Source: a bacterium
GTDB taxonomy: Bacteria; Patescibacteriota; Minisyncoccia; Phycocordibacterales; UBA9973
DNA length: 64,000 nt
NCBI GenBank assembly: GCA_027484965.1
Contig: JAIXRY010000006.1
Location: forward strand, 130,101-194,100
Reading direction: 5' to 3'
Program-made: the position numbers and the translations under genes
Shown here: positions 44,378 through 60,177 of the stretch, one piece after another
Layout of the letters: every line of letters begins with the position of its first letter
How positions within the stretch are numbered: the stretch's first letter is position 1
Notes under the pieces: generated by a model
Seen by the model: only the letters and a program-made list of their open reading frames with translations
What the model was told of the DNA's origin: nothing
Database searches by the model: none

Positions 44378-44384
44378 GTAAATT

Positions 44385-44672: not shown

Positions 44673-44677
44673 ATATT

Positions 44678-44869
44678 ATGAAATACGAACCAATAAAAAT
44701 ACTAGATACTGAGATAAACAAGGAACACTTCCCAATACTTTATGATTGGGCTTTAAAAGATAAGGAGGGTTTAGAACAAAGAATTCTATCTGACCTACAA
44801 CCAAATGAGAAACCCATAACTCTTTTGGTAATGCTTGAGATGGACTTAGAAGAACAACAATTAAAATAA
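44678..44869 (+). CDS. hypothetical small protein (63 aa)
   Basis: ORF. Confidence 0.3.
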   Translation: MKYEPIKILDTEINKEHFPILYDWALKDKEGLEQRILSDLQPNEKPITLLVMLEMDLEEQQLK

Positions 44870-44870
44870 T

Positions 44871-45188: not shown

Positions 45189-45253
45189 TTTGGTGAATCT
45201 AACTATAAAAGCTTAATTTATATAGCTTTATTGAAATATGTCAGTTAATAAAT

Positions 45254-45327
45254 AAGGTTGGAAAATGGTGGATATACAGATAATTTTATGGGGGCAAAAG
45301 GGTGGTATTGAGGTTGGTAAAAGGTGG
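45254..45327. promoter_or_regulatory. two direct repeats AGGTTGGwAAAAkGGTGG (iteron/operator-like)
   Basis: 45254-45271 and 45310-45327. Confidence 0.35.
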
Positions 45328-45408
45328 CACTAATTGTAATATTGAACCTGCTTTATTTGTGGTCCCCTAAACATTGATATGTAATGTAAACTACTATAAA
45401 GTGTAGTT

Positions 45409-46482: not shown

Positions 46483-46706
46483 AACACTATAAGTAAAACA
46501 AAGTAAACAATAAATTATCCTGAAGTTAATCCTTCGGGATTTTTTATGCAGGAAATTGTCTCACTACAAGAAACTAAAAAGAGTTTCAAAATAGACGAAC
46601 TACCTCTTGAAGACAAGCAAAGGCTGGTCGGTGCTTTTGTATGGCTCATAGAGGAAGACAAGAAACAAAATCCTGCACTTTATAAGAAAATTAAAACAGT
46701 AAAAAA

Positions 46707-46982
46707 ATGAAAAAATATTTAAAATTTATTGAAGAAAATAGTATTGAAGATAATGAAATACTACTCTACCCCATAACATCAGAAGACGTGAACTTGCAGA
46801 CAAAAAAAATATTAGATGAAAAATATCTATTTAGAATCTACATAGCATTGTCTTCTATGGAAGAGTTTAGAGAAAGAATAAATAACATTATTGATGAAGC
46901 TATCAAAATTGCCCTAAATGACAAAGAGCCTCATTGGGTAGAGATTGATGATGTATATAAGAATTATCAAATCGATGATTGA
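46707..46982 (+). CDS. hypothetical protein (91 aa)
   Basis: ORF. Confidence 0.35.
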   Translation: MKKYLKFIEENSIEDNEILLYPITSEDVNLQTKKILDEKYLFRIYIALSSMEEFRERINNIIDEAIKIALNDKEPHWVEIDDVYKNYQIDD

Positions 46983-48093: not shown

Positions 48094-48604
48094 ACAAAAA
48101 TTAAGTGCAACAAAACAGTTTCAAAAAGGTATAAATATAGCTATGGCAAAATACTACAATCAAGCCATTTCAGATAATGTAAAGCGTGCTTTTGAACAAA
48201 AAAGAAGGAACGGAGAATGGATAGGTATTGCACCTATTGGATACCTAAATACTTCTATAAATAAAAAAACACAAACACAGAAAACAATAATTATTGATAA
48301 AAAGAGAGGTCCTATAATACAAAAAATGTTTGAATTATTGGCTAGCGGTAAAGAAACAATTAAAACAATAAAAGAGGAAGCATCAAGAATGGGATTAAAG
48401 GGTCGTAATGGTTCAAAATTATCAATGGCTTGTGTTAATAATATTCTCAAAGATTCTTTTTATTGTGGTATAGCTGTATCAAAAAAATATGGTTCTTATA
48501 AACACAAGTATCCAAACCTCATTAGTAAAGAGCTTTTTGATAGATGTCAGTCTGTTCTATCTAAAACAATTCTCTACTCAAGACAAAGTTGCTATGTAAA
48601 GTAG
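48080..48604 (+). pseudogene. serine recombinase fragment (recombinase domain only, no catalytic N-terminal domain)
   Basis: AKYYNQAISDNVKRAFEQKRRNGEWIG...ILKDSFYCGIAVSKKYGSYKHKYPNLISKELFDRCQ is a diverged copy of residues ~125-260 of the recombinase at 50443..52026. Confidence 0.6.
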
Positions 48605-48641
48605 AGTAAAGTATAATTATTAAGTAAACAAAGATAAAATT

Positions 48642-48818
48642 ATGAAAGATAAAACATTTTATAAAGCAGAAGACCTTGCAAAATTATTAGAGGTAAACAT
48701 TATGACTATTTACCGCTACATTGATGCTAAGAAAATTAAGGCATACAAAATTGGTCGCCAATATAGAATTGATAAAAGTGAGTTTGATGCTTTTCTTGAG
48801 AAAGTAAGAACTAAATAA
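48642..48818 (+). CDS. excisionase-family helix-turn-helix DNA-binding protein (58 aa)
   Basis: Not in ORF track; LAKLLEVNIMTIYRYIDAKKIKAYKIGRQYRI pattern of HTH_17/Xis-like proteins. Confidence 0.55.
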   Translation: MKDKTFYKAEDLAKLLEVNIMTIYRYIDAKKIKAYKIGRQYRIDKSEFDAFLEKVRTK

Positions 48819-48819
48819 T

Positions 48820-49803
48820 ATGAAAGATAAAAAACAAAAAAAGTATACATTGGTTTCTTTATTTGCTGGATGTGGCGGATTGGATTTAGGTTTTACTGGC
48901 GGATTTGAAGTGTTAGGTAAAAAATATACAAAGAGAAATTTTGATTTAATATGGGCTAATGATTTTGAAAAAAATGCTTGTTTAACTTTCTCAAAATATT
49001 TTGATAAAGAAATTGTTTGTGCCGATATAGTAGAGGTTTTGAAAGGAAATTACCCAGATTTATTTTCGTCTCGTATGCCTAAAAAAGCTGACGTTGTTAT
49101 AGGTGGATTTCCTTGCCAAGATTTCAGTTTAGCTGGTAAGAGAAGAGGTTTTAATTCAAAAAGAGGAAATCTATATCAAAGTATGGTTGAAACTGTTAAA
49201 AGATTAGAACCAGCCCTATTTATCGCTGAAAATGTTAAGGGGCTTTTGAGTATGAATGGTGGAGATGCAATTGAAACAATTAAAAAAGATTTTGCCGAGC
49301 TTGGTTACAATGTCGAATATAAACTTTTTCACGTAGCGGATTACGGAGTACCTCAAAATAGAGAGCGAGTTATTATTGTTGGTACAAGTAAAAAGAAGAA
49401 AATGCCACCATTTGTTTTTCCAAAACCAACACATACTAAAGATAAATGGGTTTCAGTCGGAGAAGCTATTAAAGACTTAGAAAAAATTGAAGAAAATAAT
49501 TTCCCTAACCATAGTTGGTCAAGAGCGAAAATGTTTGAAGGTACTCAAGGAAACTCAATAATTAAAAAAGATAAAATAGCTCCGACAATGAGAGCTGAAC
49601 ATCACGGGAACATAGAGTGGCATTGGAATAAAAAGAGAAGATTATCCGCAAGAGAAGCAGCAAGAATACAAACATTTCCAGATAACTTTATCTTTTATCC
49701 TTCTACCTCAAGTGCTTATAAGCAAATTGGTAATGCAGTCCCTCCTGTTTTTGGTTGGCATATAGCTAAAGCAGTTGAAAATTATTTAACTAAGAATATA
49801 TAA
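48820..49803 (+). CDS. DNA (cytosine-5)-methyltransferase
   Basis: LFAGCGGLDLGF (motif I), GGFPCQDFSLAGKR (IV), ENVKGL (VI), QNRERV (VIII), YKQIGNAV (X). Confidence 0.9.
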   Translation: MKDKKQKKYTLVSLFAGCGGLDLGFTGGFEVLGKKYTKRNFDLIWANDFEKNACLTFSKYFDKEIVCADIVEVLKGNYPDLFSSRMPKKADVVIGGFPCQDFSLAGKRRGFNSKRGNLYQSMVETVKRLEPALFIAENVKGLLSMNGGDAIETIKKDFAELGYNVEYKLFHVADYGVPQNRERVIIVGTSKKKKMPPFVFPKPTHTKDKWVSVGEAIKDLEKIEENNFPNHSWSRAKMFEGTQGNSIIKKDKIAPTMRAEHHGNIEWHWNKKRRLSAREAARIQTFPDNFIFYPSTSSAYKQIGNAVPPVFGWHIAKAVENYLTKNI

Positions 49804-49807
49804 ATTT

Positions 49808-50440
49808 ATGAGTGCTGATTTAACTACACTTTTTACAGACAGTAAAACAATAAAGAAAATACAAGAAAAATTACCTGATCTTTTTCAGCTTGCTGAACTA
49901 GATAATTCAAGAGACGGGAAACTTGGTATGGAAATTGGCTCAGCAAGGGAACGTATAATTATCGCTCTTTTAATATATAAGTTTGGTGAATTAAATGTTA
50001 AAACTAATATAGCTATTACATTTGCTGAGACTGATGCTATTGTTTTTGAAAAACCTGTATCAATAAAAACTATAACTGGAAAGAAAATTAACGGAGTAAA
50101 ACTTATTTGGACTGTAGATGCTCAAAAAGCTTTATCATTCAGTCAAAATTATATACCGAGTTGTGATATTTTATTAGTACAAATAAATTGGAATAGTAAA
50201 GGATTTTTTTACTTATTTCCTAAAAAAGCACAAGAGGATGTATTAACTAAAATTAGTAGATCTGAATACATTAAACTTCCAAAAGCAGGAACTAACCCCC
50301 GAGGTGTTGAATTGTCTGGTAAAGCAATTGAAGAACTATCTAAACATCCTCAAACTATGAAAATTGAGATTGATTGGAAAAGAAGTGATATTAAACATAA
50401 TCCATATGAAAGATGGGTTGAACATTGGCTTGAAGAATAA
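49808..50440 (+). CDS. putative cognate type II restriction endonuclease
   Basis: Immediately downstream of the C5-MTase in the same orientation; no recognisable family motif. Confidence 0.4.
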   Translation: MSADLTTLFTDSKTIKKIQEKLPDLFQLAELDNSRDGKLGMEIGSARERIIIALLIYKFGELNVKTNIAITFAETDAIVFEKPVSIKTITGKKINGVKLIWTVDAQKALSFSQNYIPSCDILLVQINWNSKGFFYLFPKKAQEDVLTKISRSEYIKLPKAGTNPRGVELSGKAIEELSKHPQTMKIEIDWKRSDIKHNPYERWVEHWLEE

Positions 50441-50442
50441 TT

Positions 50443-52026
50443 ATGAAAGCAATAAATATATCAAGAGTATCAACAGAGGAACAAAAAGATAATTCGCCAC
50501 TCGCTCAAGAGAACAGGTTAATTAACTATTGCAAAAGCAAATCTTTTGAGATAATAAAAAATTATAACTTCCAAGAAAGTGCTTACAAGGAAAAGAGAGA
50601 TGAGTTCGATGTTATAGTTGAACATATCCAAGAAGTAGCTAAAAAAGAAAAAATAGCTGTATGTTTTGATAAAGTAGACCGTCTTTCACGAAGTGTGTTT
50701 GATAAAAGAGTTGGAATGCTTTACGAAATGGCTTTAGCAGACAAAATAGAACTTCACTTTGTTTCAGACGGACAGATTATCAATAATCAAATGTCTGCTG
50801 TTGAAAAATTCCAATTTGGTATGAGTCTAGGATTAGCTAAATACTACTCTGACGCTATTGGTGATAATGTAAAAAGAGCATTTGAACAGAAACGAAGGAA
50901 CGGCGAGTGGACAGGAGCGGTCCGTTTAGGTTATTTGAATGTGCAACTAGACGCAGAAAAAAGATTACGTAAGGATATTATTATCGATCCAGAACGAGGA
51001 CATTTGATACAAAAAATGTTTGAGTTGTACGCAACGGGTCAATATTCACTTGAAACTATAAGAAACAAGATGACCGAGCTTGGATTACAAACCCTCAAAG
51101 GAAATAGTTTATCAAAAAGCGGAGTTGAAAATATCCTAAAGGATAGCTTTTACTGTGGAATAGCAATTACAAAAAAGTATGGTTCTTATGCTCATAAATA
51201 CCCTAGATTGATTACAAGAGAACTCTTTGATAAGTGCCAACAGATACGCAATAAACGCAATAATCATAAATCAAAAGCACTCACAAAAAAACAGTATATT
51301 TTTGGTGATGGTTTCTTAAAATGCCATAATTGTGGTTGTTCAATTACCGCAGAAAATCATAAGGGTATAAATTACTATTCTTGTACTAATGCTAAAGGCA
51401 TTTGTAAAAGAGTATATATCACAGAAAAGGACCTTTTGAAGCACATATACGAGGTTTTAGAGCGATTTGAGGGTATTACAGAAGAGGCACAGAATCAACT
51501 CGTATCAGAACTAAGAAAGAACACAGAAAGTGAGGTTGTATTCCATAAAGCACAAATAAGTCGCATACAGACCGATTACAACAATTTGAAAGCAAAACAG
51601 GACAGATTACTTGATGCTTATATTGACCAGAGTATTACTAAGGACATCTATGACAAAAAGCATCAAGAGTATCAAGACCAAATACAAGTACTTGAAATTG
51701 AAATGTCTGAACACTCAAAAGCAGATTACGATTACCAAACTACTGTTGCTACAGTGCTTTCTGTAGCACGCAGAGCAAAAACAATATTTGATAATAGTTC
51801 TGAACCTGCTAGAAAAAGACAGTTTTTGAATTACATACTTCAGAACCCGACTGTAAACGAAAAGAAGCTATATTTTACAATAGCTTCTCCGTTTAATTTG
51901 GTACTAGAATTAGCTAGTACCCCTAACTGGCTCGCTTTGACAGACGATTTCCGAACAATAGATTGGGCAAAAGAATATCCATATCCAACAATAAGTTTGG
52001 GTGAAATTAAAGCTCTGGTTTGTTAA
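50443..52026 (+). CDS. large serine recombinase
   Basis: MKAINISRVSTEEQ catalytic motif, recombinase domain, CHNCGC...C zinc ribbon; 527 aa. Confidence 0.8.
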   Translation: MKAINISRVSTEEQKDNSPLAQENRLINYCKSKSFEIIKNYNFQESAYKEKRDEFDVIVEHIQEVAKKEKIAVCFDKVDRLSRSVFDKRVGMLYEMALADKIELHFVSDGQIINNQMSAVEKFQFGMSLGLAKYYSDAIGDNVKRAFEQKRRNGEWTGAVRLGYLNVQLDAEKRLRKDIIIDPERGHLIQKMFELYATGQYSLETIRNKMTELGLQTLKGNSLSKSGVENILKDSFYCGIAITKKYGSYAHKYPRLITRELFDKCQQIRNKRNNHKSKALTKKQYIFGDGFLKCHNCGCSITAENHKGINYYSCTNAKGICKRVYITEKDLLKHIYEVLERFEGITEEAQNQLVSELRKNTESEVVFHKAQISRIQTDYNNLKAKQDRLLDAYIDQSITKDIYDKKHQEYQDQIQVLEIEMSEHSKADYDYQTTVATVLSVARRAKTIFDNSSEPARKRQFLNYILQNPTVNEKKLYFTIASPFNLVLELASTPNWLALTDDFRTIDWAKEYPYPTISLGEIKALVC

Positions 52027-52050
52027 ACCAGCTTTTACTTTTTTTATACT

Positions 52051-52542
52051 ATGACAAAAAATACTAAAACAAACCCACACGGAGCAAACGCTACATTGCT
52101 TGATCCACGTCAGCAATACTGTTGGGATTATTATATAGATATACGCTCAGATACCTTCTCAAACGCCTTACAATCGGCAATAAAGGCTGGTTACAGTGCA
52201 AACTCAGCTACTCACATAACAAGCCAGAAGTGGTTTGTAGAAAAGGTGCGAAAATTAGGGTTTTTAAGCAAAGCTGAACAGATAATAGAAGATATTCTAG
52301 ATATGCCGGTTATGACTGCTGAGTGGCAAGGTACAGGCAAAGAGAGACGACAATACGTTGTTACTGACGCCTCACTGATAAAGATTAAACAAGATACTGC
52401 GAAGTTTATCTGCGAGCGTCTTGGTAAGAATGAAGGATACACTACCAAGCAAGAACTATATCATTCCGGTAAACTGGATTTAGTTACTGGAAATAAAGCG
52501 TTAGATGATTTGTTTGAGGAAGAAGAAATTACCAATCTCTAG
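52051..52542 (+). CDS. phage terminase small subunit-like protein
   Basis: LLDPRQQYCWDYYIDIRSDTFSNALQSAIKAGYSANSA matches the Terminase_2 HTH pattern (L.p.q..Fc..Y....n.t.Aa..AGYS). Confidence 0.55.
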   Translation: MTKNTKTNPHGANATLLDPRQQYCWDYYIDIRSDTFSNALQSAIKAGYSANSATHITSQKWFVEKVRKLGFLSKAEQIIEDILDMPVMTAEWQGTGKERRQYVVTDASLIKIKQDTAKFICERLGKNEGYTTKQELYHSGKLDLVTGNKALDDLFEEEEITNL

Positions 52543-54598
52543 CAGGAGGATTTCTAAATAGATTTATTGCCTCTTTGTCCTTTTCGTTCATAAGAGCAAT
52601 CTCTTCGTCGGTAATGTCTTTTACAAGAGCCTCAATTTCTTCTATTGGATACAAGGGCTCAATACCTTTTTTGTCTAATCTATTATAGTTACCATTTGTA
52701 GACATCACTCGCCCCACAAACCCTTTTAATAAGCTTAGAAGACCCTCTCTGGTGCTAATAAGATTTTTTATATATTCTTTTACTTTATCTTCTCCCTCCC
52801 ATTCTTTCCAGCGATATAATGCGAACACAAGAGATTTTTCCTCGTGGAGTTTATTATCACTAGCAAGCTTGTTGATATCTGCCAATGATATTACTTTGAG
52901 TTTTTCTGCCTCCTCAGCTGTGATCAATGGTTCTTCTGTACGCTGTTGATTATTTTGTTGGTCTATAAGCATTGCTACAAATCTAGTAGAAGGGTAAAAG
53001 GTTTTACTCGTCTTTACTAATTCTTCAAGAATAGCAAAACGTTGCTCTTTAACTAGGTGTTTTATTGCGTGGTAAGTAATGCGTGAAGACTGGGTTTCTA
53101 TGTCATCAAAATCAAACATTGCACTTCGTTCATCTCCAATATCTTTTTCTAAATCCCATAGTGTAGAGATAACAACCTTCATTTTTGTTTCGTCCAATGT
53201 ATCTACTCTATCAAGGATTTTAACGAGCATAGGACGTAGACGTTTATCTTTCGCTAGTTCAAGTATCTTTTCTGAAAAAACTGCCTTATCTCCAAAGCTT
53301 TCTGCGAGAGCATTGCCTTCTACTTCTGATATAGCACCTTCTGGGATACCTAGCTGGAAATAAAAACCAAAGCGTTCAGCTACACACATACGTCGCTCAC
53401 GTTTCCATATCTGATCCCAATCACTGCCATAGTGTGCATTATCAAGATTAGGAAAGAGTACCTCGCAAATACCTTGCATTGGTTTCCTTAAGTCTACAGG
53501 CAATGCGTCTATGAGCTCTTTAAGTTTGGCTTGTAGATTTTTCTTATTGTTCTCTCCATAATCGGTAAGGCCGTGTGATCCTAGAAACAAATTAGGGTTT
53601 GCAGAAATACCAGAGTATAGCGTAGGTGCAAATACTCGTACGGCCTCAATCGCCATAAAATCAATCTGGTTTACATCTTCTTTCTCTACGATTGACCAGT
53701 TAAGGCGAAGAGAACTTATATAACGCTTTATATCTCTAACAGTTTTGAATGGCTTTTGAAAACCCTTATATTGCAAATCGCCCCATCTCTTCTCATCATT
53801 TCCTTCAAGCTTTACCTCTGTGTATACGCCTTTTATGGTCTCATCTAAATCAGCAAAAAGTATTTTTTGTAGTCCTTGTTCATCTGGCATTGGAAGAGTA
53901 AAAGATACTTGTATTATCTTTTTAAGATACTCCTCGCCAGAGCCTTCAGTGTTTAATTTTTCAGCAACTTTCTCTCTGTCATAACAAAGCACAAACACAG
54001 TATTTGGAAAGTTAGCTGTCATTTTAACTAGTTTCATTACAAGTCTAGTTTCTTCTGTATCAAGACGGTCTATATCGTCTATAACGATAACAACTTTCTT
54101 ACCGAGATGTTTGAATAAATCATCTACGTCTCTTCGCTCTTCTTCAAGAGTTTTTTCTCCTCCTTTTAACTTAAATAAATCATTTGCCTTTAGATTTACT
54201 AAACCTCCAAGAACTGTAATCTCTGGGCTAAAAGCAAGCTCACTTTTCTTTGTAAGCTTAGAGACAATTGACCTTACTTTTTTTACCTTATCTTTATCTT
54301 CAATAAATGGTGCTATTTTGGCAAGAAGTGTAGAAAAGAAATCTGTTATAAGTTCATTTTGTCCAGAAAAGTTCCAAGGGTTAAAGTTTATAAAAATCAG
54401 ATTGGGATCATCTTTTATTTCTTTAAGTGCAAGATTTATAAATGATGTTTTACCAGAACCCCAGACACCCTCAATACCGATAACAAAACTTTCTTTACCT
54501 TGAAAAGTGGCAATGAGCTCAGCTACTTTTTTAGCGAGTGGAGCTCTACGAAGTTTATCGTCGTCCTTATCTTCAATTGGGTAATCTGGCATTATCAT
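52529..54598 (-). CDS. KAP-family P-loop NTPase
   Basis: IGIEGVWGSGKTSFINL Walker A and VVIVIDDIDRLDTEE Walker B hallmark. Confidence 0.75.
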   Translation of the reverse strand: MIMPDYPIEDKDDDKLRRAPLAKKVAELIATFQGKESFVIGIEGVWGSGKTSFINLALKEIKDDPNLIFINFNPWNFSGQNELITDFFSTLLAKIAPFIEDKDKVKKVRSIVSKLTKKSELAFSPEITVLGGLVNLKANDLFKLKGGEKTLEEERRDVDDLFKHLGKKVVIVIDDIDRLDTEETRLVMKLVKMTANFPNTVFVLCYDREKVAEKLNTEGSGEEYLKKIIQVSFTLPMPDEQGLQKILFADLDETIKGVYTEVKLEGNDEKRWGDLQYKGFQKPFKTVRDIKRYISSLRLNWSIVEKEDVNQIDFMAIEAVRVFAPTLYSGISANPNLFLGSHGLTDYGENNKKNLQAKLKELIDALPVDLRKPMQGICEVLFPNLDNAHYGSDWDQIWKRERRMCVAERFGFYFQLGIPEGAISEVEGNALAESFGDKAVFSEKILELAKDKRLRPMLVKILDRVDTLDETKMKVVISTLWDLEKDIGDERSAMFDFDDIETQSSRITYHAIKHLVKEQRFAILEELVKTSKTFYPSTRFVAMLIDQQNNQQRTEEPLITAEEAEKLKVISLADINKLASDNKLHEEKSLVFALYRWKEWEGEDKVKEYIKNLISTREGLLSLLKGFVGRVMSTNGNYNRLDKKGIEPLYPIEEIEALVKDITDEEIALMNEKDKEAINLFRNPPARDW

Positions 54599-54606
54599 AA
54601 TGGGTA

Positions 54607-55752
54607 TTATTTTTCTTGTTCTTCAAACTCATCATATGAGCCGATTTTAGCAAAATCAATTTTGTATTTGCCGTCTGGAAGTTTATAAATAACAACAGCG
54701 TCAAGACCTATGTCTTCTAGTTTTTTATAAGTAACAACTTCTCCTTGTGGAATAGATAAGATATCTCTCAATATCCATTTACCGAGTTCTTTATTTGATT
54801 TAGACATAAGGGCTTTACCACCAGCTTGGCAGATTTTGGCACTCATAGTTTGTTTATTTGGTAACATAAGTTCAAAAGGAGTTTCTCTGTCTGGAAAGAA
54901 GTCTGGAAACTTTCTATGTATCCACGCTGGAACAGGTATATATGCCTCATCTAAATCTCTTTTTCTTCCTGCGGCGTTCCATTGATTAAGTCCACTACCT
55001 ACACCAACTTCTTTTTCTTCTCCAGATCTAGTTGAATACAGTGGTAAAAATACGTGGGGGTACTCAGTTTCAATTGGAGAAAACGCAAGATCTGCGATAG
55101 CAGGTAATTCTATAGACGTCAGTCCAGCTAAAACATCAAAAGGGTCTTCAAGTATTTTTATTGAAACTTCTGTAACTGTATCTTTTATGATAAATCTCTT
55201 AAACAGAGTGTTCTTTGAAAAATTAAAAGAATACTCCTCGTGCTTATCTTTGAAAGAAACTGAGGTCTTACTTTCGTCTAGTATTTTAATACTCGCTGTA
55301 TCAATAAGACGCATTGGTGTTTCTAGCACGTGCATTTTTCCTTTAGTTCTTGTAACACAGTGATACATCATCTGTTCAAGGGCGTAGATCTTCATTGTAG
55401 TTTCAATTCTCTCATTTCTTAAACGAGCAATTTCCTGTACAAGCCCTTTCATATCAAAGTCCTTAAAAGAAGAGCTTTTTGCATTAAACTCAGCAACTTT
55501 TTCCATTGTATTACCACGTTTTTCGCCAAAAGTTTTTATTCCAAAACCAATACCGTTTAATGAGGCGTCTGCAGATGTACAGTCTCTTGAGAGATTGTCA
55601 GCATTGAAACTTTTACAGAACAGATTTTCAGCTACTCTATAATCAAGATATGGTTCATCACTCTCAGAATATAGACGAGAAAGAGAGCCCATAATGGCTA
55701 ACATTTTTTTGTAGTATTCTTTATTCTCTTTACTTTGGCTATCTATAAACAT
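54607..55752 (-). CDS. putative type II restriction endonuclease (partner of HhaI-like MTase)
   Basis: Sits between MTase and KAP NTPase with 6- and 8-nt gaps; no recognisable motif. Confidence 0.4.
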   Translation of the reverse strand: MFIDSQSKENKEYYKKMLAIMGSLSRLYSESDEPYLDYRVAENLFCKSFNADNLSRDCTSADASLNGIGFGIKTFGEKRGNTMEKVAEFNAKSSSFKDFDMKGLVQEIARLRNERIETTMKIYALEQMMYHCVTRTKGKMHVLETPMRLIDTASIKILDESKTSVSFKDKHEEYSFNFSKNTLFKRFIIKDTVTEVSIKILEDPFDVLAGLTSIELPAIADLAFSPIETEYPHVFLPLYSTRSGEEKEVGVGSGLNQWNAAGRKRDLDEAYIPVPAWIHRKFPDFFPDRETPFELMLPNKQTMSAKICQAGGKALMSKSNKELGKWILRDILSIPQGEVVTYKKLEDIGLDAVVIYKLPDGKYKIDFAKIGSYDEFEEQEK

Positions 55753-55758
55753 ATAGAT

Positions 55759-56712
55759 TTAATTCATTGCCTTTACAATGTTCTTAGCTACTTTTTCAAT
55801 CACAGTAACAGTAACAGAGTTGCCGGCTTGTTTGTATAATTTACTATCAGATAGATTTTTTGGGATTTTGTATTTTTTAGGAAAGCCTTGAGCGTTCAAA
55901 CACTCTTTTGGTGTTAGTTTTCTAATACCTTTTTTATCTAAAATAAGAGGCACATTATGTCCACCAGTACCCATATTTGCAGTTAATGTTGGAACAACAC
56001 CTCTTTTATTCTCACGAACATATTGTCTACGCCACTGATAAACTGTATCTTTTTTTGTAATACTTTCCTTTAGTTTAGGGTAGAGAGCAGAGTTTTTATA
56101 GTAGTATTTTTCCGGCACATCAGTCTCTAAAATATCAGCAATGGTAACATTTAATTTTGTCGGTTTTGGAAACTCAAAATTATCTATAAACTTTTTATTC
56201 TTGAAACCAACGATATAAATACGCTCACGATTTTGTGGCACATTACCATAGTCAGCACTATTCATAACTTGAGATTTTATATGATAACCAAGAGCAGTTA
56301 GGGCGTCCTCAATAACCTTAAAAGTTTTCCCTCCGTCGTGGTTTTTTAAGTTTTTTACATTCTCCAAAAGAAAACCCATAGGTTTTTTTTCTTTAAGTAT
56401 TTTTACTATATTCAAAAACTGGTTTCCTCTCTCAGTGTCTTCAAATCCTTTTCTGTATCCGGCTATAGAAAAAGGCTGACAAGGAAATCCTGCCAAAAGA
56501 AAATCAAAATTAGGTAGACTTGAAGGTTTTATAGCACCAATATCTCCAACAGTTAGAGGTACAGTATTAAAATTAAGATCAAAAGTTATCTTACAAGCAG
56601 GCTCAATATCGTTTGAAAAAACAGTCTGAAAACCAGCGTTTTCAAATCCAAGTCTTATTCCTCCTATGCCAGCATAAAGATCTAATGTCTTTAGGTGTAC
56701 CTTATTCTTCAT
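55759..56712 (-). CDS. DNA (cytosine-5)-methyltransferase, M.HhaI-like
   Basis: LDLYAGIGGIRLGF, LLAGFPCQPFSIAGYRKGFEDTERGNQF (close to M.HhaI FPCQAFSISGKQKGFEDSRG), ENVKNL, QNRERI, YKQAGNSV. Confidence 0.9.
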   Translation of the reverse strand: MKNKVHLKTLDLYAGIGGIRLGFENAGFQTVFSNDIEPACKITFDLNFNTVPLTVGDIGAIKPSSLPNFDFLLAGFPCQPFSIAGYRKGFEDTERGNQFLNIVKILKEKKPMGFLLENVKNLKNHDGGKTFKVIEDALTALGYHIKSQVMNSADYGNVPQNRERIYIVGFKNKKFIDNFEFPKPTKLNVTIADILETDVPEKYYYKNSALYPKLKESITKKDTVYQWRRQYVRENKRGVVPTLTANMGTGGHNVPLILDKKGIRKLTPKECLNAQGFPKKYKIPKNLSDSKLYKQAGNSVTVTVIEKVAKNIVKAMN

Positions 56713-56791
56713 AAGAGTTATTATATCAAAAAAATACTCTAAAAACTACGCTGTTCTGCACATACAAGAGTATGCGATAGAGTGTCAAATA

Positions 56792-57163
56792 CTAGTCAAT
56801 TATGTTTTTGCTCATCATCTCAGACAAAGCCTTAAGTTTTTGATAGAAAGGGCTCAAATATCGTTCGTATCTTTCTTTATCAAACTTACTGCACATATCA
56901 TCTAAGGCACTGTCTAATTTTGGTTTCATTTGCTTGAGTACCCAAGAGGCATATTCTTCTTTTCCTTTTTCAATGTTGCTAAAGCGTGCTCTCACTAATA
57001 AATCATAGATAACAATACCAGATATAACAGCAAACGGTGTAAGGGCTATAGTCTTAAAACTCCACTGATCAGCCGGTGGTAAATGGGTAAAAAAGTATTG
57101 TAAAAAAATAAAAGACGCTACAACAAGTATTAAATTATATTTTCTATAAAAACTATTTTGCAT
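56792..57163 (-). CDS. small membrane protein (123 aa)
   Basis: Two TM segments. Confidence 0.4.
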   Translation of the reverse strand: MQNSFYRKYNLILVVASFIFLQYFFTHLPPADQWSFKTIALTPFAVISGIVIYDLLVRARFSNIEKGKEEYASWVLKQMKPKLDSALDDMCSKFDKERYERYLSPFYQKLKALSEMMSKNIID

Positions 57164-57210
57164 AGAGATTTTGGTTAATAATAAAACCTCTATGTGTGGT
57201 TAAAAACTAA

Positions 57211-57345
57211 ATAAGCACCACTGAGAGAGGTGCTGACAAACCAATAGCCCTAGAGCTGTTGATTATGTTTCCTCAAACAATGGTGCTTATTTAGCACGTA
57301 ATCAACAGTAAAAGACGTCGGTCTTTTAGGGTGCGATATTGGTTT
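57211..57345. other. interleaved perfect inverted repeats (aaataagcaccac/tggtgcttattt; gacaaaccaata/tattggtttgtc; ctgttgatta/taatcaacag) in pseudoknot-like order
   Basis: Seen directly; order A1-B1-C1-A2-C2-B2. Confidence 0.5.
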
Positions 57346-57879
57346 GTCAGCGAAGTCATTATAGCAAAATTGACCCATAATTGAAATAGTAAGTGCGAGA
57401 AAAATTGACACAGATATTTATTATTGTTGTATTTATATTTTATTAAAAAATACTTTCCTTAATAATTCTTTTATATAAGCATAACTACTTTGCACTTCAC
57501 TAATGCATAAATACTATGTACTCTTATCCTTCAAAATACTCAATTTTATGTTGATACGTATAGGTATTACGTGATATACTGTACCTGTACAGAGATGTAC
57601 TGGGATCGTTATTAACCGGATTGAAGAGATGTGTTTTAACAAACAAAGCTCTTTTCAAAAAATCTTCAATCAAAGATAACCCAGTAAGTAGGCTGAAATA
57701 TGACCCTACTGACTAGATGTAATTACAACCACATACCTTGTATGTTTAAGTAAGTACATAAACAAATAAATTGCTCAACCGGATACCGGACGAGCCTGTG
57801 GCGTAGATTTTTCTACTGCTCACAGACCACCTTTCAGGTGTAATTTATTTTTTATGATTTACTCAAGCATATAAAAACT

Positions 57880-57908
57880 AAAGCGACCTGAAATGGTCGC
57901 TTTTTTGT
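57880..57908 (+). terminator. rho-independent terminator aagcgacc-tgaaa-tggtcgctttttt
   Basis: 7-bp GC-rich stem + T-run in a long non-coding region. Confidence 0.7.
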
Positions 57909-57970
57909 TTGTTCTGAAATGTCTATTTAATAAAGAGATATTTCAGAGCTAAGAAATTGGCTCTGAACTT

Positions 57971-58213
57971 ATGATAGACATTAACCGTTCAAAATTATCT
58001 GACCAAGATATCACAGACCTTTCAGGTCTCTTTGATATGTTTGCAATGTTTGATTTTGAAGATACTCAAAAAGTATCACGTCTCTCACAGGAAATTGGTA
58101 AAGACTTCTCTTCGGTTAAGGGGAAGTCTTTACCAGCGTCTTGTGATCAAGACAAAACAAACGAATTAGAAAATCCTTCTTCTAAGGGCACAGAAGTAAA
58201 ACGGCTCTTATAA
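57971..58213 (+). CDS. hypothetical acidic protein (80 aa)
   Basis: ORF. Confidence 0.35.
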   Translation: MIDINRSKLSDQDITDLSGLFDMFAMFDFEDTQKVSRLSQEIGKDFSSVKGKSLPASCDQDKTNELENPSSKGTEVKRLL

Positions 58214-58545
58214 AATCTTTGAAATTGGCTCATATTCAAAGGCAAAACAAGGATACTTCAGGTGCAAATGTGAAAGCTGGGAAAATGGTTGTCCAGACTT
58301 ACCACCCAGCCGTCTGATTTGTACCGGATGTATTCAGATAAAAACTAAAGATATAAAAAGAAAAGTGAACTGCCGAGTTTTTATAAAACTAGCTTTTCTT
58401 AAGGGGGTCATTAGTTGGTTATCATATTCTAATTCCATACAAGAGCACCAAATTAGTCATTTGTTACTCTTACCAACATTCACTTATAGATATTTATCAT
58501 AAGGGGAAGTCTGGATTATTATCAAAAAATGTTAGAATAGTATTT

Positions 58546-60117
58546 ATGAAAGGCTCAAACATAAACAATTGTGTTTTATATTGCCGAGTATCTTCAAAAG
58601 AACAAGAAGAAACTGGGTACTCTCTTCCTTCACAGGAAAAGCTCTTAAAAGAATATGCAGAACGTAGAAATAATTTTACTGTTGTAAAAGTTTTCTCTGT
58701 TGCTGAAAGTGCTAGTGGCTCAAAGCAAAGAAAAGTGTTTGCTGAAATGATGTCATTTATATCAAAGCACGATATAAAAAATCTAGTAGTAGAAAAAGTT
58801 GATCGCCTTACTCGCAACCTAAAAGAGGCTGTATTTGCTAATGATTGGTTAGATGAAGACAAGGAAAGAAAAATACATTTCGTAAAACAAAACCTAGTAT
58901 TACACGTAGGTGCTAAGTCAGACGAAAAGTTTCGCTGGGATATTGAAATTGTTTTAGCTAAGAAGTTTATATCAAACCTCTCAGAAGAAGTACGAAAGGG
59001 TCAAGCTGAAAAATTAGCTCAAGGTTGGCTACCTACAACACCTCCAATTGGATACAAAACTATTGGAGAAAAAGGGCACAAGATACACGTAATAGATACT
59101 AATTTCTCTGGTTTTATTAAGAAGGCTTTTGAAATGTATGCTAGTGGTAATTATTCAATGGAGGCACTGAGACAACAACTCTACAAAGAGGGCTTTAGAA
59201 CTCGTAATGGTAATAAACCAGCAAAAAGTGCAATTGAAAATCTACTTAACGAAGTATTTTATTATGGTGCTATGAAATGGAACGGAGTACTTTATAAGGA
59301 CGGCAAACAAGAGCCAATAATTACAAAAGAATTATTTGATAAAGCTCAAGAGGTACGCCAGAGACATCTAGCACCAACTTACAGCCGGCATAACTTCCAA
59401 TTTAAGAAACTAATGAAGTGTGGCGAATGTAATGGCACAATCACAGCTGAAGTACAGAAAGGCATAGTGTACTACCATTGTAGCCACTATAACGATTGCA
59501 CTCAAAAACCATATACACCAGAGAAAGAGATTGAAGAACAACTCTTTGGAGTATTCAAGTTTTTTGAGAACATAACACCAGAAGAGGCTGAGGCTATTAA
59601 GGAGAAAATTAAAGCAAACCACGCTCAAGAAATTACTTACAAGGAAAATACTCTTAAATCTCTCAACGCTCGCTATTTACAGCTACAGAGCCGATTAGAC
59701 ATACTCTATAACGACAGATTAGATCAGAAGATTACTACAGATAGCTGGGAGAAGAAACAGAGCGAAATAAATAAAGAACAGGAAAATATCCTTGAACAAA
59801 TTGAGAGAATTAAAAATGTTGAGACGAAGTACTTTGAGATATGGTTGAACATCTTAGACCTTGCACACAGAGCAAAAGAAATATATGAAAAAAGAAGTCC
59901 GGAAGAACGCCGAACACTTTTATCTCATATTTTTCTGAACTTAACTTTAACTGACAAAAAAGTCATACCTACATTGAAGAAACCAGTTGAAGTGCTTGCT
60001 CAACGTGTCCAAGAGAAAATAGACGCTCAAAAGATTTTCGAACAGAAGAAAACCGTTGCTATAAAACGACAAAAGAGCTCTTACGAGCCCCTTTGTCCTT
60101 CTTTGCTCCCCCGGTAG
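58546..60117 (+). CDS. large serine recombinase (integrase) overlapping the 3' end of tRNA-Asn
   Basis: VLYCRVSSKEQEETGYSLPSQ catalytic motif; recombinase domain; CGECNG...C zinc ribbon; last 12 nt overlap tRNA. Confidence 0.8.
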   Translation: MKGSNINNCVLYCRVSSKEQEETGYSLPSQEKLLKEYAERRNNFTVVKVFSVAESASGSKQRKVFAEMMSFISKHDIKNLVVEKVDRLTRNLKEAVFANDWLDEDKERKIHFVKQNLVLHVGAKSDEKFRWDIEIVLAKKFISNLSEEVRKGQAEKLAQGWLPTTPPIGYKTIGEKGHKIHVIDTNFSGFIKKAFEMYASGNYSMEALRQQLYKEGFRTRNGNKPAKSAIENLLNEVFYYGAMKWNGVLYKDGKQEPIITKELFDKAQEVRQRHLAPTYSRHNFQFKKLMKCGECNGTITAEVQKGIVYYHCSHYNDCTQKPYTPEKEIEEQLFGVFKFFENITPEEAEAIKEKIKANHAQEITYKENTLKSLNARYLQLQSRLDILYNDRLDQKITTDSWEKKQSEINKEQENILEQIERIKNVETKYFEIWLNILDLAHRAKEIYEKRSPEERRTLLSHIFLNLTLTDKKVIPTLKKPVEVLAQRVQEKIDAQKIFEQKKTVAIKRQKSSYEPLCPSLLPR

Positions 60118-60177
60118 GGATCGAACCTACGACCAATCGATTAACAGTCGATTGCTCTACCGCTGAGCTACAGGGGA
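60106..60177 (-). tRNA. tRNA-Asn (anticodon GUU)
   Basis: Sense strand UCCCCUGUAGCUCAGCGGUAGAGCAAUCGACUGUUAAUCGAUUGGUCGUAGGUUCGAUCCCUACCGGGGGAG: cloverleaf with U1-A72 as in E. coli tRNA-Asn, anticodon loop CUGUUAA, T-loop UUCGAUC. Confidence 0.88.

What the first reader, a model, noticed from the sequence alone, without database searches (positions are those of the whole stretch)
58546..60177. Island boundary: large serine recombinase gene ends inside the 3' end of tRNA-Asn(GUU); accessory region ~15.4-60.1 kb
- The recombinase stop codon lies 12 nt inside the tRNA 3' acceptor arm, the classical arrangement of an integrated element that reconstitutes the tRNA 3' end.
- Everything to the left back to ~15.4 kb is accessory-type: repeat array, defence modules, three LSRs, terminase small subunit.
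- Immediately right of the tRNA, core genes resume (rsmE, uppP, rseP).
Basis: partly seen in the sequence, partly recalled or inferred. Interest (0 to 1): 0.55.

Follow-up and report, generated by a model that had tools for sequence, protein, structure and literature searches.

The report
Stacked serine-recombinase elements at tRNA-Asn
The recombinase gene that runs into the tRNA-Asn gene marks the newest of three mobile elements and about ten small gene cassettes stacked at the tip of this tRNA gene by serine recombinases whose own genes are cut by the insertion site, an arrangement that is widespread in Patescibacteria and that I could not find described.

Summary
A 523-aa large serine recombinase (LSR1, 58546-60117) ends at a TAG 12 nt inside tRNA-Asn(GUU) (60105-60177, minus strand).

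It is not a classical tRNA island with a duplicated tRNA end. The exchange site is a 4-bp core, GCTC (tRNA positions 71-74).

The 15.3-60.1 kb region is a stack, not one island:
- a cassette array, about 15.8-26.0 kb;
- E3, 25977-39259, carrying LSR3;
- E2, 39260-51933, carrying LSR2;
- E1, 51934-60108, carrying LSR1.

The attP site lies inside each recombinase gene. The tRNA-proximal LSR therefore loses its last 31-36 codons. Internal LSRs read into the left end of the next element.

The decisive evidence is a public contig of the same strain, 100% identical over 32 kb, that lacks exactly E1 (8,175 bp) and joins LSR2 to the tRNA through GCTC.

The arrangement is a family trait. 61 of 79 genome loci end in a tRNA, mostly tRNA-Asn. 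29 of 113 metagenomic tRNA-Asn loci carry such an LSR, and similar LSR-less cassette arrays occur elsewhere.

The closest analogues are SCC elements, tycheposons and integrons. I found no description of this arrangement in the literature searched.

The parts
58546..60117 (+). LSR1: large serine recombinase of element E1, in its tail-less integrated form (523 aa). Its last two codons and its stop (CCC CGG TAG) are read from the tRNA.
   Evidence: ORF and domains. There are 1608 homologues, about 90% of the best 120 tail-less. PHROG 95 integrase matches at 5.5e-70.
60105..60177 (-). tRNA-Asn(GUU). It is the constant (B') half of the target site, and its T-loop reads GGATCGAACC at +13..+22 from the core.
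   Evidence: ARAGORN; Rfam 70.8 bits; sequence.
60105..60108 (.). Core GCTC (tRNA positions 74-71). This is the right-hand exchange point of E1.
   Evidence: The contig lacking E1 maps these 4 nt to both 51930-51933 and 60105-60108. Four-way arm comparison.
60071..60094 (-). Hairpin encoded antisense in the last codons of LSR1 (KRQKSSYEPL). On the tRNA strand it is a 13-bp stem followed by a U-run, 14 nt downstream of the tRNA end, and it looks like a terminator for the tRNA.
   Evidence: Fold energy -25.2 kcal/mol, z = -7.0. The equivalent hairpin is visible in homologues.
51934..60108 (+). Element E1 (8,175 bp): tail b, an HTH protein (52051-52542), a PifA-like KAP NTPase (52529-54598, minus), a type II restriction enzyme (54607-55752, minus), a C5 methyltransferase (55759-56712, minus), a 1.4-kb mostly non-coding stretch with a small conserved ORF, and LSR1.
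   Evidence: E1 is precisely absent from Logan contig SRR30952595_14858, which is 100% identical on both sides. Cargo annotation.
51934..52026 (+). Tail b (ALTDDFRTIDWAKEYPYPTISLGEIKALVC). It is the left (P') arm of E1 and is read in frame as the C-terminus of LSR2.
   Evidence: The same tail stands alone 4.4-9 kb upstream of tRNA-proximal LSR1-family genes in 15 genomes. pN/pS is 0.33.
51930..51933 (.). Core GCTC at the E2|E1 junction.
50443..52026 (+). LSR2 (527 aa), a hybrid ORF. Residues 1-496 belong to E2 and the tail to E1. In the E1-less variant the protein is 499 aa and ends ...PNWLPR.
   Evidence: P0121 is 100% identical over 94% of the query and 499 aa long. Junction. LSR2-like genes abut tRNA-Asn at the same TGGCTC in L153, L171 and L087.
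39260..51933 (+). Element E2 (12,674 bp): tail a, an AbiU2-like protein, a KAP NTPase, a LOOT RNA, a conserved pair of a 382-aa protein and a Recombinase-domain fragment, an HTH_17 protein, M.ThaI/R.ThaI and LSR2.
   Evidence: In L040 (Wolfebacteria CP011209) a homologous element follows a different LSR (LSR1 family) that carries the same tail type. Pfam annotation.
39256..39370 (+). Core GCTC (39256-39259) plus tail a (HLVDKFRTANWTGIKSDLQFSGVLELLTSESIDCLL). This is the left arm of E2 and is read as the C-terminus of LSR3.
   Evidence: LSR3-like genes end at ATGCTC or TTGCTC followed by tRNA-Asn in L136, L190, L163 and L193.
37577..39370 (+). LSR3 (597 aa), the recombinase of E3, in the internal tail-bearing state.
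   Evidence: Pfam. 110 of its 120 best homologues are tail-less or read into the tRNA, typically 561-565 aa.
25977..39259 (+). Element E3 (13,283 bp): tail c, a DUF3800/PDC-M04A protein, a 1189-aa SF1 helicase-nuclease (PDC-S37/Hhe-like), a LOOT RNA and LSR3.
   Evidence: Unit and tail c at 25911-26013. L016 shows an LSR followed by tail c and then an LSR3 homologue. PADLOC annotation.
15815..26013 (+). Array of LSR-less cassettes separated by units of about 105 nt. Each unit is GGTTCGAAC box + hairpin + GCTC + tail c (CGAATGTGGGAGGAAGTTCGGAC). Units start at 15815, 18287, 19706, 20149, 20949, 21623, 22290, 23591, 24228 and about 25911. Each cassette holds one or two small ORFs, mostly on the minus strand.
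   Evidence: The tail half is 86-96% identical to the 3' ends of LSR genes in L044 and L061. Cargo Pfam annotation.
15327..15372 (+). Outermost recognisable trace of a site: a hairpin directly after the stop of ORF 14885-15319, then GCTA + 15 nt + TTCGAAC. It is the candidate decayed outer boundary.
   Evidence: The P'-type signature occurs 6 times on the plus strand and never on the minus strand, against 0.5 expected per strand. Repeat family D12. This evidence is weak.
57971..58213 (+). Small ORF (80 aa) 330 nt upstream of LSR1. It is a candidate accessory protein of unknown role.
   Evidence: Weak matches recur at the same relative position, 400-800 nt upstream of the LSR, in about 20 loci (E from 1e-9 to 0.5).

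Best explanation
The tRNA-Asn gene of this Patescibacteria genome is a landing pad for integrative elements moved by large serine recombinases (LSRs).

**How the site works**
- Each element carries its attP inside the 3' end of its own recombinase gene, 31-36 codons before the stop.
- Recombination exchanges strands within a 4-bp core, GCTC. This core equals tRNA nucleotides 71-74: the last two acceptor bases, the discriminator and C74.
- After integration the recombinase ORF runs from its own left (P) arm into the tRNA. It picks up two codons and the TAG at the acceptor/T-stem border.
- The 31-36 tail codons (the P' arm) end up at the far end of the element.
- The tRNA body stays host-derived. 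Only its 3' trailer changes.

**How the stack grows**
- New elements enter at the tRNA-proximal junction, using the constant tRNA half-site, and push older ones away.
- This produces the stack: cassettes | E3 | E2 | E1 | tRNA.
- Each internal recombinase reads in frame into the tail of its younger neighbour.
- The distal 10 kb is an array of recombinase-less cassettes of one or two genes. Each has a P'-type tail on one side and a hairpin + GCTC on the other. They were presumably moved in trans by an LSR3-type enzyme.
- The hairpin next to the core doubles as a terminator for the tRNA.

**Shown**
- The junction anatomy.
- The 4-bp core.
- E1 as a discrete unit that is present or absent.
- The family-wide rule that tRNA-proximal means tail-less and internal means tailed.
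- Purifying selection on the tail.

**Inferred**
- Which enzyme moves which unit.
- The order of arrival.
- Mobilisation of cassettes in trans.
- Any regulatory role of the tail.
For: 1. **E1 is discrete.** Contig L200/L215 (Logan SRR30952595_14858, 32,269 nt) equals window ~19716-51933 and then 60105-60159 at 100.000% identity. The 4 nt GCTC are shared, so exactly 8,175 bp are missing. The flanking bases at -1 (G versus T) and +4 (G versus C) stay with their own arms, which confines the exchange to GCTC.
2. **All three LSR families use the same site.** LSR2-like and LSR3-like genes abut tRNA-Asn at T[GT]GCTC in metagenomes, for example L153 (78% identical) and L190 (72%). In total 29 of 113 tRNA-Asn loci carry an abutting LSR.
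3. **The family rule holds.** Of 79 genome loci, 61 LSRs end in a tRNA and 8 carry tails. Among the 120 best homologues of each LSR, about 90% are tail-less or read into the tRNA and 8-11% carry tails.
4. **Tails travel with the downstream element, not with the upstream LSR.**
   - Tail a plus E2-like genes follow an LSR1-family gene in L040.
   - Tail b stands alone, next to a hairpin + T[TG]GCTC, at the far end of 15 single LSR1-type elements.
   - Every LSR family shows several tail types.
5. **The tail is translated.** pN/pS is 0.33 with pS 0.79 in codons 10-29, which lie 28-87 nt from the core, well beyond the ~25-bp reach I expect for an LSR half-site (recalled figure, not tested).
6. 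**Cassettes.**
   - The units share the GCTC + tail c sequence with LSR 3' ends in L044 and L061.
   - In L061 an LSR-less cassette sits between an LSR and tRNA-Asn.
   - Arrays of 4-6 units adjoin tRNA-Asn in L101, L164 and L095.
7. **Half-site geometry.** The TCGAAC-like box lies at +16..21 in the tRNA arm and at +19..26 in all three tail types. An offset of about 5 bp is what established LSR attB/attP structures show (recalled knowledge of the A118-type integrase-DNA structure).
8. **Hairpins.** Stable hairpins lie just downstream of the tRNA end in the LSR1, LSR3 and cassette arms, with z from -4.5 to -7.0.
Against: - No recombination assay exists and no circular intermediate was found. 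The predicted E1 circle junction is absent from IMG/VR.
- Canonical LSRs do not recombine attP with an attR-like (P|B') site without a directionality factor. Entry at an occupied site therefore requires relaxed left half-site recognition, which is untested.
- The E1 polymorphism cannot tell insertion from excision.
- The leftmost units lack tails, and no clean outer attL was found. The left limit is therefore only bracketed, between 9.2 and 15.4 kb.
- The P arm of LSR2 has no significant hairpin.
- The left half of the cassette units is only weakly similar to LSR 3' ends.
- The literature searches cover open-access text only.
Confidence: 0.8

Rival explanations
1. One 45-kb island was integrated once by LSR1 at tRNA-Asn. 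The other two LSRs are passengers with intact, unused attP sites.
For: A single tRNA-proximal recombinase sits at one edge. Accessory and defence cargo runs throughout. Composition is uniform.
Against: - Only E1 (8,175 bp) is missing from a contig that is otherwise identical, and the break lies exactly at the LSR2 core.
- Tail a plus E2-like genes follow an unrelated LSR in L040.
- Tail b marks the far end of single LSR1-type elements in 15 genomes.
- LSR2 and LSR3 relatives themselves abut tRNA-Asn at the same core.
Confidence: 0.05
2. The ~105-nt units are only intergenic terminator or REP-like repeats spread by duplication. The 15.8-26 kb stretch is ordinary variable gene content, not cassettes moved by site-specific recombination.
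For: Each unit contains a stable hairpin with a U-run. Terminator-like sites are enriched, 9 against 3.5 expected. The leftmost units lack the GCTC + tail half. No cassette has been seen in two different arrays at high identity.
Against: - The right half of the unit (GCTC + 24 nt) is 86-96% identical to the tail-encoding 3' ends of LSR genes in other genomes.
- All units share the orientation of the LSR genes, and comparable arrays are always on the 3' side of tRNA-Asn.
- The two halves occur separately, as expected from exchange at the core.
- The L061 cassette is flanked by an LSR arm on one side and by hairpin + GCTC + tRNA on the other.
Confidence: 0.08
3. A prophage or phage satellite is integrated at tRNA-Asn, and the 'terminase small subunit' is part of its packaging module.
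For: Weak matches of the 52051-52542 product to Terminase_2 and PHROG 51. LSRs are common phage integrases (PHROG 95).
Against: - The matches cover only about 50 N-terminal residues and fall below the curated cut-off.
- No capsid, portal, large terminase or tail genes appear among the ORFs scanned.
- Only 5 relatives of the LSR occur in 2.9 million IMG/VR contigs.
Confidence: 0.03
4. The tail-less LSRs are decaying pseudogenes left by ancient integrations, and the stack is fixed and immobile. The E1 difference arose by homologous or illegitimate deletion.
For: The tRNA-proximal proteins lack conserved C-terminal residues. The distal units are degenerate.
Against: - All tail-less ORFs keep intact catalytic, recombinase, zinc-ribbon and coiled-coil regions across hundreds of homologues of 44-83% identity.
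- The E1 break uses only a 4-bp identity, exactly at the family-wide core. This fits conservative site-specific exchange and is unlikely for random deletion.
Confidence: 0.04

Closest known systems
Staphylococcal cassette chromosome (SCC/SCCmec) with CcrAB/CcrC large serine recombinases
   Same: LSR-driven elements insert at the 3' end of one conserved housekeeping gene. They pile up in tandem as composite islands and include recombinase-less pseudo-elements bounded by the same short sites. Cargo is accessory or defence-type.
   Different: - The target here is a tRNA gene tip, not rlmH.
- The recombinases are not Ccr: they score 45-68 bits against cut-offs of 700-900.
- attP lies inside the recombinase ORF, so the protein changes with integration state.
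- The cassettes are as small as 0.45-1.3 kb.
- The host phylum is Patescibacteria.
Tycheposons of Prochlorococcus (bioRxiv 10.1101/2020.12.28.424599)
   Same: They are tRNA-targeting integrative elements with the recombinase at the tRNA-proximal end. They form tandem junctions and carry cargo or defence genes, and a minority use an LSR (27 of 937).
   Different: - Most tycheposons use tyrosine recombinases and leave partial tRNA repeats. Here no tRNA repeat exists.
- Three LSR families share one 4-bp core.
- The recombinase gene is truncated by integration.
Integrons
   Same: They are an ordered, co-oriented array of single-gene cassettes. The cassettes are separated by hairpin-containing recombination sites of about 60-140 nt, next to a recombinase gene.
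   Different: - Integrons use the tyrosine recombinase IntI, attI, and folded single-stranded attC sites with R'/R'' cores.
- No tyrosine recombinase was found in the window.
- The units carry a serine-recombinase-type GCTC core and a P'-arm sequence instead.
- The platform is a tRNA gene.
Myxophage Mx8 intP/intX and fusellovirus SSV1 integrase (recalled from memory, not tested here)
   Same: attP lies inside the integrase gene. Integration into a tRNA gene alters (Mx8) or splits (SSV1) the integrase ORF.
   Different: Both are tyrosine recombinases with long identity segments. Here the enzyme is a serine recombinase with a 4-bp core, and only the last 31-36 codons are exchanged.
Classical tRNA-gene genomic islands (Islander type, PMC4383910)
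   Same: The island lies at the 3' side of a tRNA gene, the recombinase gene is adjacent to the tRNA, and the tRNA remains functional.
   Different: Those islands use tyrosine integrases and regenerate the tRNA from an element-borne copy, leaving a displaced tRNA fragment as a direct repeat. That repeat is absent here.
Phage large serine integrases (phiC31, Bxb1, A118, TP901-1)
   Same: The domain set is the same (Resolvase, Recombinase, zinc ribbon with coiled-coil). The core of identity is minimal. The attB-type and attP-type half-sites differ in motif spacing.
   Different: - Sequence similarity is only distant (TP901-1 catalytic domain, E 5e-5).
- As I recall, the characterised phage enzymes have attP outside the int ORF and target protein-coding genes or intergenic DNA (not tested here).
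- As I recall, they do not re-use an occupied site (not tested here).

Membership tests
Large serine recombinase (serine integrase) family | N-terminal resolvase-type catalytic domain with the serine motif | tested here: met
   PF00239 matches LSR1 at 3.5e-19, LSR2 at 9.7e-18 and LSR3 at 9.2e-19. R14-V15-S16 are invariant in 32 family members.
Large serine recombinase (serine integrase) family | Recombinase domain plus zinc-ribbon domain with a coiled-coil insert | tested here: met
   PF07508 and PF13408 match LSR1 and LSR2. LSR3 matches PF07508 only. The coiled-coil is inferred from the sequence of residues ~340-450 and was not modelled.
Large serine recombinase (serine integrase) family | Conservative exchange at a very short (2-bp) crossover within minimal identity between the att sites | tested here: met
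   The E1-present and E1-absent alleles share only GCTC at the junctions. The exact dinucleotide is not resolved (GC, CT or TC).
SCC elements / Ccr recombinases | Recombinase belongs to the CcrA, CcrB or CcrC families | tested here: not met
   NCBIfam equivalog scores are 45-68 bits against cut-offs of 700-900.
SCC elements / Ccr recombinases | Integration at the 3' end of rlmH (orfX) | tested here: not met
   The target is tRNA-Asn.
SCC elements / Ccr recombinases | Tandem accretion, with recombinase-less elements bounded by the same sites | tested here: met
   The stack E3|E2|E1 plus the cassette array. The L061 cassette.
Islander-type tRNA island (tyrosine integrase) | Tyrosine integrase next to the tRNA | tested here: not met
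   The adjacent gene is a serine recombinase. No Phage_integrase hit occurs among the ORFs scanned or in the precomputed Pfam for 19.7-52 kb.
Islander-type tRNA island (tyrosine integrase) | Displaced tRNA 3' fragment as a direct repeat at the far end | tested here: not met
   No second copy of the 18-nt or 29-nt tRNA 3' segment is found with up to 3 mismatches. Short-word blastn finds nothing.
Integron | IntI-type tyrosine recombinase with attI | tested here: not met
   No tyrosine recombinase was found (the same calls as for the Islander-type integrase row).
Integron | attC sites with R''/L''-L'/R' architecture and a GTTRRRY core | tested here: not met
   The units have one simple hairpin and a GCTC core and lack RYYYAAC/GTTRRRY. 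This is by inspection; no attC covariance model was run.
Integron | Co-oriented array of promoter-poor single-gene cassettes | tested here: inconclusive
   The array and its co-orientation are confirmed. Promoter content could not be judged: 59 sites found against 57.8 expected.
Tycheposon | Site-specific recombinase at the tRNA-proximal end, tandem arrangement, cargo modules | tested here: met
Tycheposon | Partial tRNA gene repeats flanking the elements | tested here: not met
Prophage | Virion structural and packaging genes | tested here: not met
   Only a sub-threshold TerS-like N-terminus is present. There are 5 relatives in IMG/VR.

The most novel reading that the evidence does not exclude
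Patescibacteria possess a serine-recombinase counterpart of the integron/SCC principle. The tip of tRNA-Asn would act as a universal docking site where LSR elements and trans-mobilised single-gene cassettes are captured one after another. The recombinase would be a two-state protein: its last 31-36 residues, encoded across attP, are present only in the excised circle or when a neighbour has docked. This tail would act as a built-in switch of activity or directionality, in place of or alongside a separate directionality factor.
Probability: 0.35. Interest if true: 0.88.

Novelty: new variant of a known kind. Interest (0 to 1): 0.72.

Why it matters
- **Gene flow in Patescibacteria.** These bacteria have tiny genomes, and as far as I recall few mobile elements have been reported for them (not checked here). 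This locus shows a phylum-wide route of gene gain. At least a quarter of the sampled tRNA-Asn genes carry such a recombinase, and defence genes (restriction-modification systems, a PifA-like protein, helicase-nucleases) ride on the elements.
- **Mechanism.** The locus offers three deeply diverged LSR families that share one 4-bp core and one tRNA half-site. They apparently accept an already occupied site, and their protein changes with integration state. These properties bear directly on how serine integrases choose sites and direction.
- **Genome engineering.** The same properties are relevant to the use of serine integrases as genome-engineering tools.
- **Annotation.** The locus explains many recombinase ORFs annotated with odd C-termini (…DSNLRPI…). 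It also warns that tRNA-repeat-based island finders will miss this class.

Tried and rejected
- **Direct repeat of the tRNA 3' end** (18-mer and 29-mer with up to 3 mismatches, and blastn-short): none found.
- **GC content and skew as an island marker:** flat, about 0.30 throughout.
- **A missing C-terminal fragment of LSR1** sought in the six-frame translation: only the LSR2 and LSR3 tails appeared. This led to the tandem model.
- **Exact look-ups of LSR1 and the PifA-like gene in public assemblies:** not on record.
- **The E1 circle junction in IMG/VR:** 0 hits.
- **IMG/VR scan with the family profile:** 5 loci only.
- **Sigma-70 promoter scan of the array:** no enrichment.
- **Rfam search for the conserved stem-loop that flanks many tRNA-Asn genes:** no family.
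- **LOOT RNA in E1:** absent even with filters off.
- **Extruded-hairpin symmetry.** I considered that the GGTTCGAAC box 64 nt left of the core is a mirror half-site brought close by extrusion of the hairpin. I rejected this because the spacing does not hold for the LSR1 arm.
- **TTCGAA/TACGAG at -24 as a P-arm zinc-ribbon motif.** I considered this and dropped it, because that sequence is the loop of the terminator-like hairpin.
- **The HTH protein at the left end of E1 as a conserved element gene:** only one homologue, in L089.
- **Unit traces left of 15.8 kb with half-unit HMMs:** none found.
- **Structure prediction of the tail:** not run, because the output (pLDDT and secondary structure only) could not show docking.
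Full report
**1. The observation**

- The window has one tRNA gene, tRNA-Asn(GTT), at 60105-60177 on the minus strand. Rfam places it at 60106-60177.
- ORF 58546-60117 (+, 523 aa) has the three Pfam domains of a large serine recombinase (LSR): Resolvase, Recombinase and Zn_ribbon_recom.
- The DNA reads ...TCT TTG CTC CCC CGG TAG|GGATCGAACC. The stop codon therefore lies 12 nt inside the 3' end of the tRNA, as reported.
- Two further complete LSRs are present, LSR2 at 50443-52026 and LSR3 at 37577-39370. There is also a Recombinase-domain fragment at 48080-48604.
- The three LSRs are only 24-28% identical to one another.
- To the right of the tRNA lie core genes: RsmE, UppP, an M50 peptidase, RRF and MreB.

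**2. Not a classical tRNA island**

- No second copy of the tRNA 3' end exists in the window.
- Base composition is flat.
- The first lead came from the protein alignment. LSR1 stops where LSR2 and LSR3 continue with a conserved tail, L-x-L-x-D-x-F-R-T-x-x-W....
- Among 1608 homologues of LSR1, most end ...LCPALL + 2 residues. Some read on into a translated tRNA T-arm (...RQGSNLRPIA). A minority carry 30-36 extra residues of the same tail types as LSR2 and LSR3.

**3. A family trait**

Genome survey: a profile of the family retrieved 79 loci from species-representative genomes, nearly all Patescibacteria. The ORF ends as follows:

| ORF ends in | Loci |
|---|---|
| tRNA-Asn | 34 |
| 3' exon of an intron-split tRNA-Asn | 13 |
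| Uncalled tRNA-like T-arm | 4 |
| Other tRNAs (Gln, Leu, Val, Arg, Tyr, Lys, Ser) | 10 |
| Tail-bearing, no tRNA | 8 |

Group I introns in Patescibacteria tRNA-Asn genes are described in PMC13011429.

Metagenome survey: an unbiased scan with a 27-mer of the tRNA-Asn T-arm gave 120 loci.
- Of 113 with usable flank, 29 have an LSR abutting the tRNA: 10 LSR1-like, 8 LSR2-like and 11 LSR3-like.
- All three families join the tRNA at the same hexamer, T[TG]GCTC.

Homologue survey: among the 120 best homologues of each LSR, about 90% are tail-less or read into the tRNA, and 8-11% are tailed.

**4. Tails belong to the next element**

- In L040 (a complete Wolfebacteria genome) an LSR1-family gene carries tail type a. 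It is followed by homologues of window genes 40006-40809 (75% aa identity), 46945-48093 (79%) and LSR2 (68%). That is an E2-type element.
- In L016 an LSR1-like gene carries tail c and is followed, 6 kb on, by an LSR3 homologue.
- In 15 genomes a type-b tail stands alone, not fused to any LSR, 4.4-9 kb upstream of the tRNA-proximal LSR1-family gene. It is preceded by a hairpin and T[TG]GCTC. This is the far end (attL) of single E1-type elements.
- Tail b is therefore the left arm of LSR1-type elements, tail a of LSR2-type elements and tail c of LSR3-type elements.
- Each LSR family is found with several tail types, as expected if tails are acquired from neighbours.

**5. Direct proof for E1**

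- The homologue list of LSR2 contains a 499-aa protein that is 100% identical over 94% of the query (P0121).
- Its contig (Logan SRR30952595_14858, 32,269 nt) matches window ~19716-51933 at 100.000% identity. It then continues with 60105-60159, the tRNA. The 4 nt GCTC are common to both segments.
- Exactly 8,175 bp (E1) are absent.
- Base -1 (G in the LSR2 arm, T in the LSR1 arm) and base +4 (G in tail b, C in the tRNA) each stay with their own arm. The exchange is therefore confined to GCTC, which corresponds to tRNA positions 74-71.
- Other contigs of the same strain break at the first repeated unit (15851) or exactly at 60105. This is what a branching assembly graph would give at these sites.
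- E1 genes are not on record in those assemblies.

**6. Map of the window**

| Part | Coordinates | Size | Content |
|---|---|---|---|
| E1 | 51934-60108 | 8,175 bp | Tail b, HTH protein, PifA-like NTPase, type II restriction-modification system, LSR1 |
| E2 | 39260-51933 | 12,674 bp | Tail a, AbiU2-like protein, KAP NTPase, LOOT RNA, 382-aa protein + Recombinase fragment, ThaI restriction-modification system, LSR2 |
| E3 | 25977-39259 | 13,283 bp | Tail c, DUF3800/PDC-M04A protein, PDC-S37/Hhe-like helicase-nuclease, LOOT RNA, LSR3 |
| Cassette array | 15815-26013 | ~10.2 kb | See section 7 |

**7. The cassette array**

- Nine to ten units of about 105 nt lie at 15815, 18287, 19706, 20149, 20949, 21623, 22290, 23591, 24228 and ~25911.
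- Each unit consists of a GGTTCGAAC box, a 12-bp hairpin, the GCTC core and a type-c tail sequence.
- The units separate one or two small ORFs, mostly on the minus strand. These encode a PLD-like protein, a flavodoxin-like reductase, a DM13 protein, a P-loop kinase-like protein, a peptidase S51, a nitroreductase, an exonuclease and a nucleotidyltransferase.
- The tail half of the unit is 86-96% identical to the 3' ends of LSR genes in L044 and L061.
- The two halves of the unit also occur separately.
- In L061 one LSR-less cassette lies between an LSR, which thereby carries tail c, and tRNA-Asn. Its right end is box + hairpin + CATTTGCTC, fused to the tRNA.
- Arrays of 4-6 units directly adjoin tRNA-Asn in metagenomic loci L101, L164 and L095.
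- Other right-arm types exist, for example TTGTCAAT-N(0-8)-TGCTCC.

**8. Functional hints**

- *Tail selection.* Fifteen type-b tails give pN/pS = 0.33, with pS = 0.79 in codons 10-29, which lie 28-87 nt from the core. The peptide is therefore under purifying selection even though in attL it is detached from the recombinase. It must be translated when joined to an LSR, either in the circle or at an internal junction.
- *Half-site spacing.* A TCGAAC-like box lies at +16..21 in the tRNA arm (the T-loop) and at +19..26 in all three tail types. This matches the ~5-bp shift between attB-type and attP-type half-sites of characterised LSRs (recalled knowledge, an inference here).
- *Hairpins.* On the tRNA strand, the sequence just downstream of the tRNA end folds into a strong hairpin with a U-run. 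Values are -25.2 kcal/mol (z -7.0) for the LSR1 arm, z -4.5 for the LSR3 arm and z -4.6 for the cassette arm. The LSR2 arm shows no significant hairpin. The arm therefore probably also terminates the tRNA transcript.
- *Order of arrival.* The distal units are the most decayed, and E1, the polymorphic element, is tRNA-proximal. Both fit entry at the tRNA side.

**9. The left limit**

- Recognisable units stop at 15815.
- A hairpin plus GCTA-N15-TTCGAAC at 15327-15372, directly after the stop of ORF 14885-15319, is the outermost trace. The signature occurs 6 times on the plus strand and never on the minus strand, against 0.5 expected per strand.
- The 9.4-15.3 kb stretch holds small accessory-type genes without units. 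Two of them have homologues inside arrays of other genomes.
- The 4.9-9.2 kb stretch is core metabolism.
- The boundary is therefore bracketed, not fixed.

**10. Comparison with known systems**

- The enzymes are LSRs but are remote from solved or named ones. The best PDB hit is the TP901-1 catalytic domain at 5e-5. CcrA/B/C and XisF models score far below their cut-offs.
- The behaviour resembles SCC elements (tandem accretion, recombinase-less units) and tycheposons (tRNA targeting and tandem junctions; 27 of 937 use an LSR).
- The array resembles an integron, but without IntI or attC.
- An attP inside the integrase gene is known to me only for tyrosine recombinases (Mx8, SSV1; recalled, not tested).
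- Eight full-text searches and two targeted reads found no description of LSRs at tRNA-Asn in Patescibacteria, of an LSR with attP inside its own gene, or of these arrays. The library covers open-access papers and preprints only.

**11. Verdict**

- The locus is a new variant of LSR-based integrative elements, with unusual and testable properties.

Noticed in passing
window 35438-35560 (-) and 43085-43209 (+); L016 8969-9087 and 35 other loci: LOOT RNA (Rfam RF03000; I found no stated function for it in the text I read) occurs in E3 and E2. A covariance model built from three copies finds it in 36 of 79 LSR loci. It always lies 0.8-5.7 kb upstream of the recombinase, on the element side, and mostly on the opposite strand. 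E1 has none. It appears to be a component of these elements.
   Followed up: partly
L006, L009, L011, L014, L017, L025, L037, L046, L083 and others: Many tRNA-Asn genes next to these recombinases are split after the anticodon stem by a group I intron, so tRNA finders miss them. L083 has an Rfam Intron_gpI hit. This agrees with PMC13011429.
   Followed up: partly
window 2523-4381 (-), 8409-9206 (+) and 16549-17595 (+): Synteny is disturbed at the left side. A full pyruvate kinase and a 126-aa gene flank the 5' side of tRNA-Asn in L039, L053, L006 and L018, but here they lie inverted at 2.5-4.4 kb. A truncated second pyruvate kinase follows enolase at 8409-9206. The PLD-like gene, which neighbours the 5' side of tRNA-Asn in L015, L113, L161 and L186, sits inverted inside the distal array. 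This suggests an inversion or gene capture linked to the site.
   Followed up: partly
L083, L084, L092, L095, L111, L112, L114, L115, L137, L138, L156, L158, L173, L176, L195, L199; also left of the stand-alone tails in L010, L014, L016, L024: A conserved element of about 60 nt, TTTTCGCTCCCTACAC-(hairpin)-CTCCCCGGAGC, followed by a terminator hairpin, abuts the tRNA-Asn core in many genomes. It has no Rfam match. It may be the native neighbour of the tRNA or the end of a widespread cassette.
   Followed up: no
L089, about 1150-1330: An E1-type left end (tail b plus a 77% identical homologue of the HTH protein 52051-52542) lies inverted next to tRNA-Asn. A perfect palindromic hairpin there is flanked by GAGCA on one side and GCTC on the other. 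This hints that integration or inversion can occur in either orientation.
   Followed up: no
window 51928-51933 versus 60103-60108: The codon before the core decides whether the tRNA gene encodes its CCA end. The LSR2 arm gives TGGCTC (= GAGCCA, CCA encoded). The LSR1 arm gives TTGCTC (= GAGCAA). Arrival of E1 thus removes the encoded CCA. One array cassette (24953-25894) encodes a nucleotidyltransferase with a PolyA_pol head domain (PF01743), which as I recall is the CCA-adding enzyme superfamily.
   Followed up: no
window 46945-48604: The 'LSR fragment' (174 aa, Recombinase domain only) and the preceding 382-aa protein without any Pfam match are conserved as a pair in L040 (79% and 54% aa identity). 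They are therefore probably a functional gene pair of E2-type elements rather than debris.
   Followed up: no
window 57164-58545: A 1.4-kb stretch upstream of LSR1 has almost no convincing ORF. Positions 57171-57371 are 73-83% identical to DNA 1.0-1.9 kb upstream of the LSR in L002 and L004. The 80-aa ORF 57971-58213 recurs weakly at the same relative place in about 20 loci.
   Followed up: partly
L026, L027, L043 (archaeal bins) and several bins labelled Pseudomonadota, Bacteroidota or Omnitrophota: Relatives of the recombinase (43-51% identical) occur in bins assigned to archaea and to other phyla. These may reflect real transfer or binning contamination.
   Followed up: no
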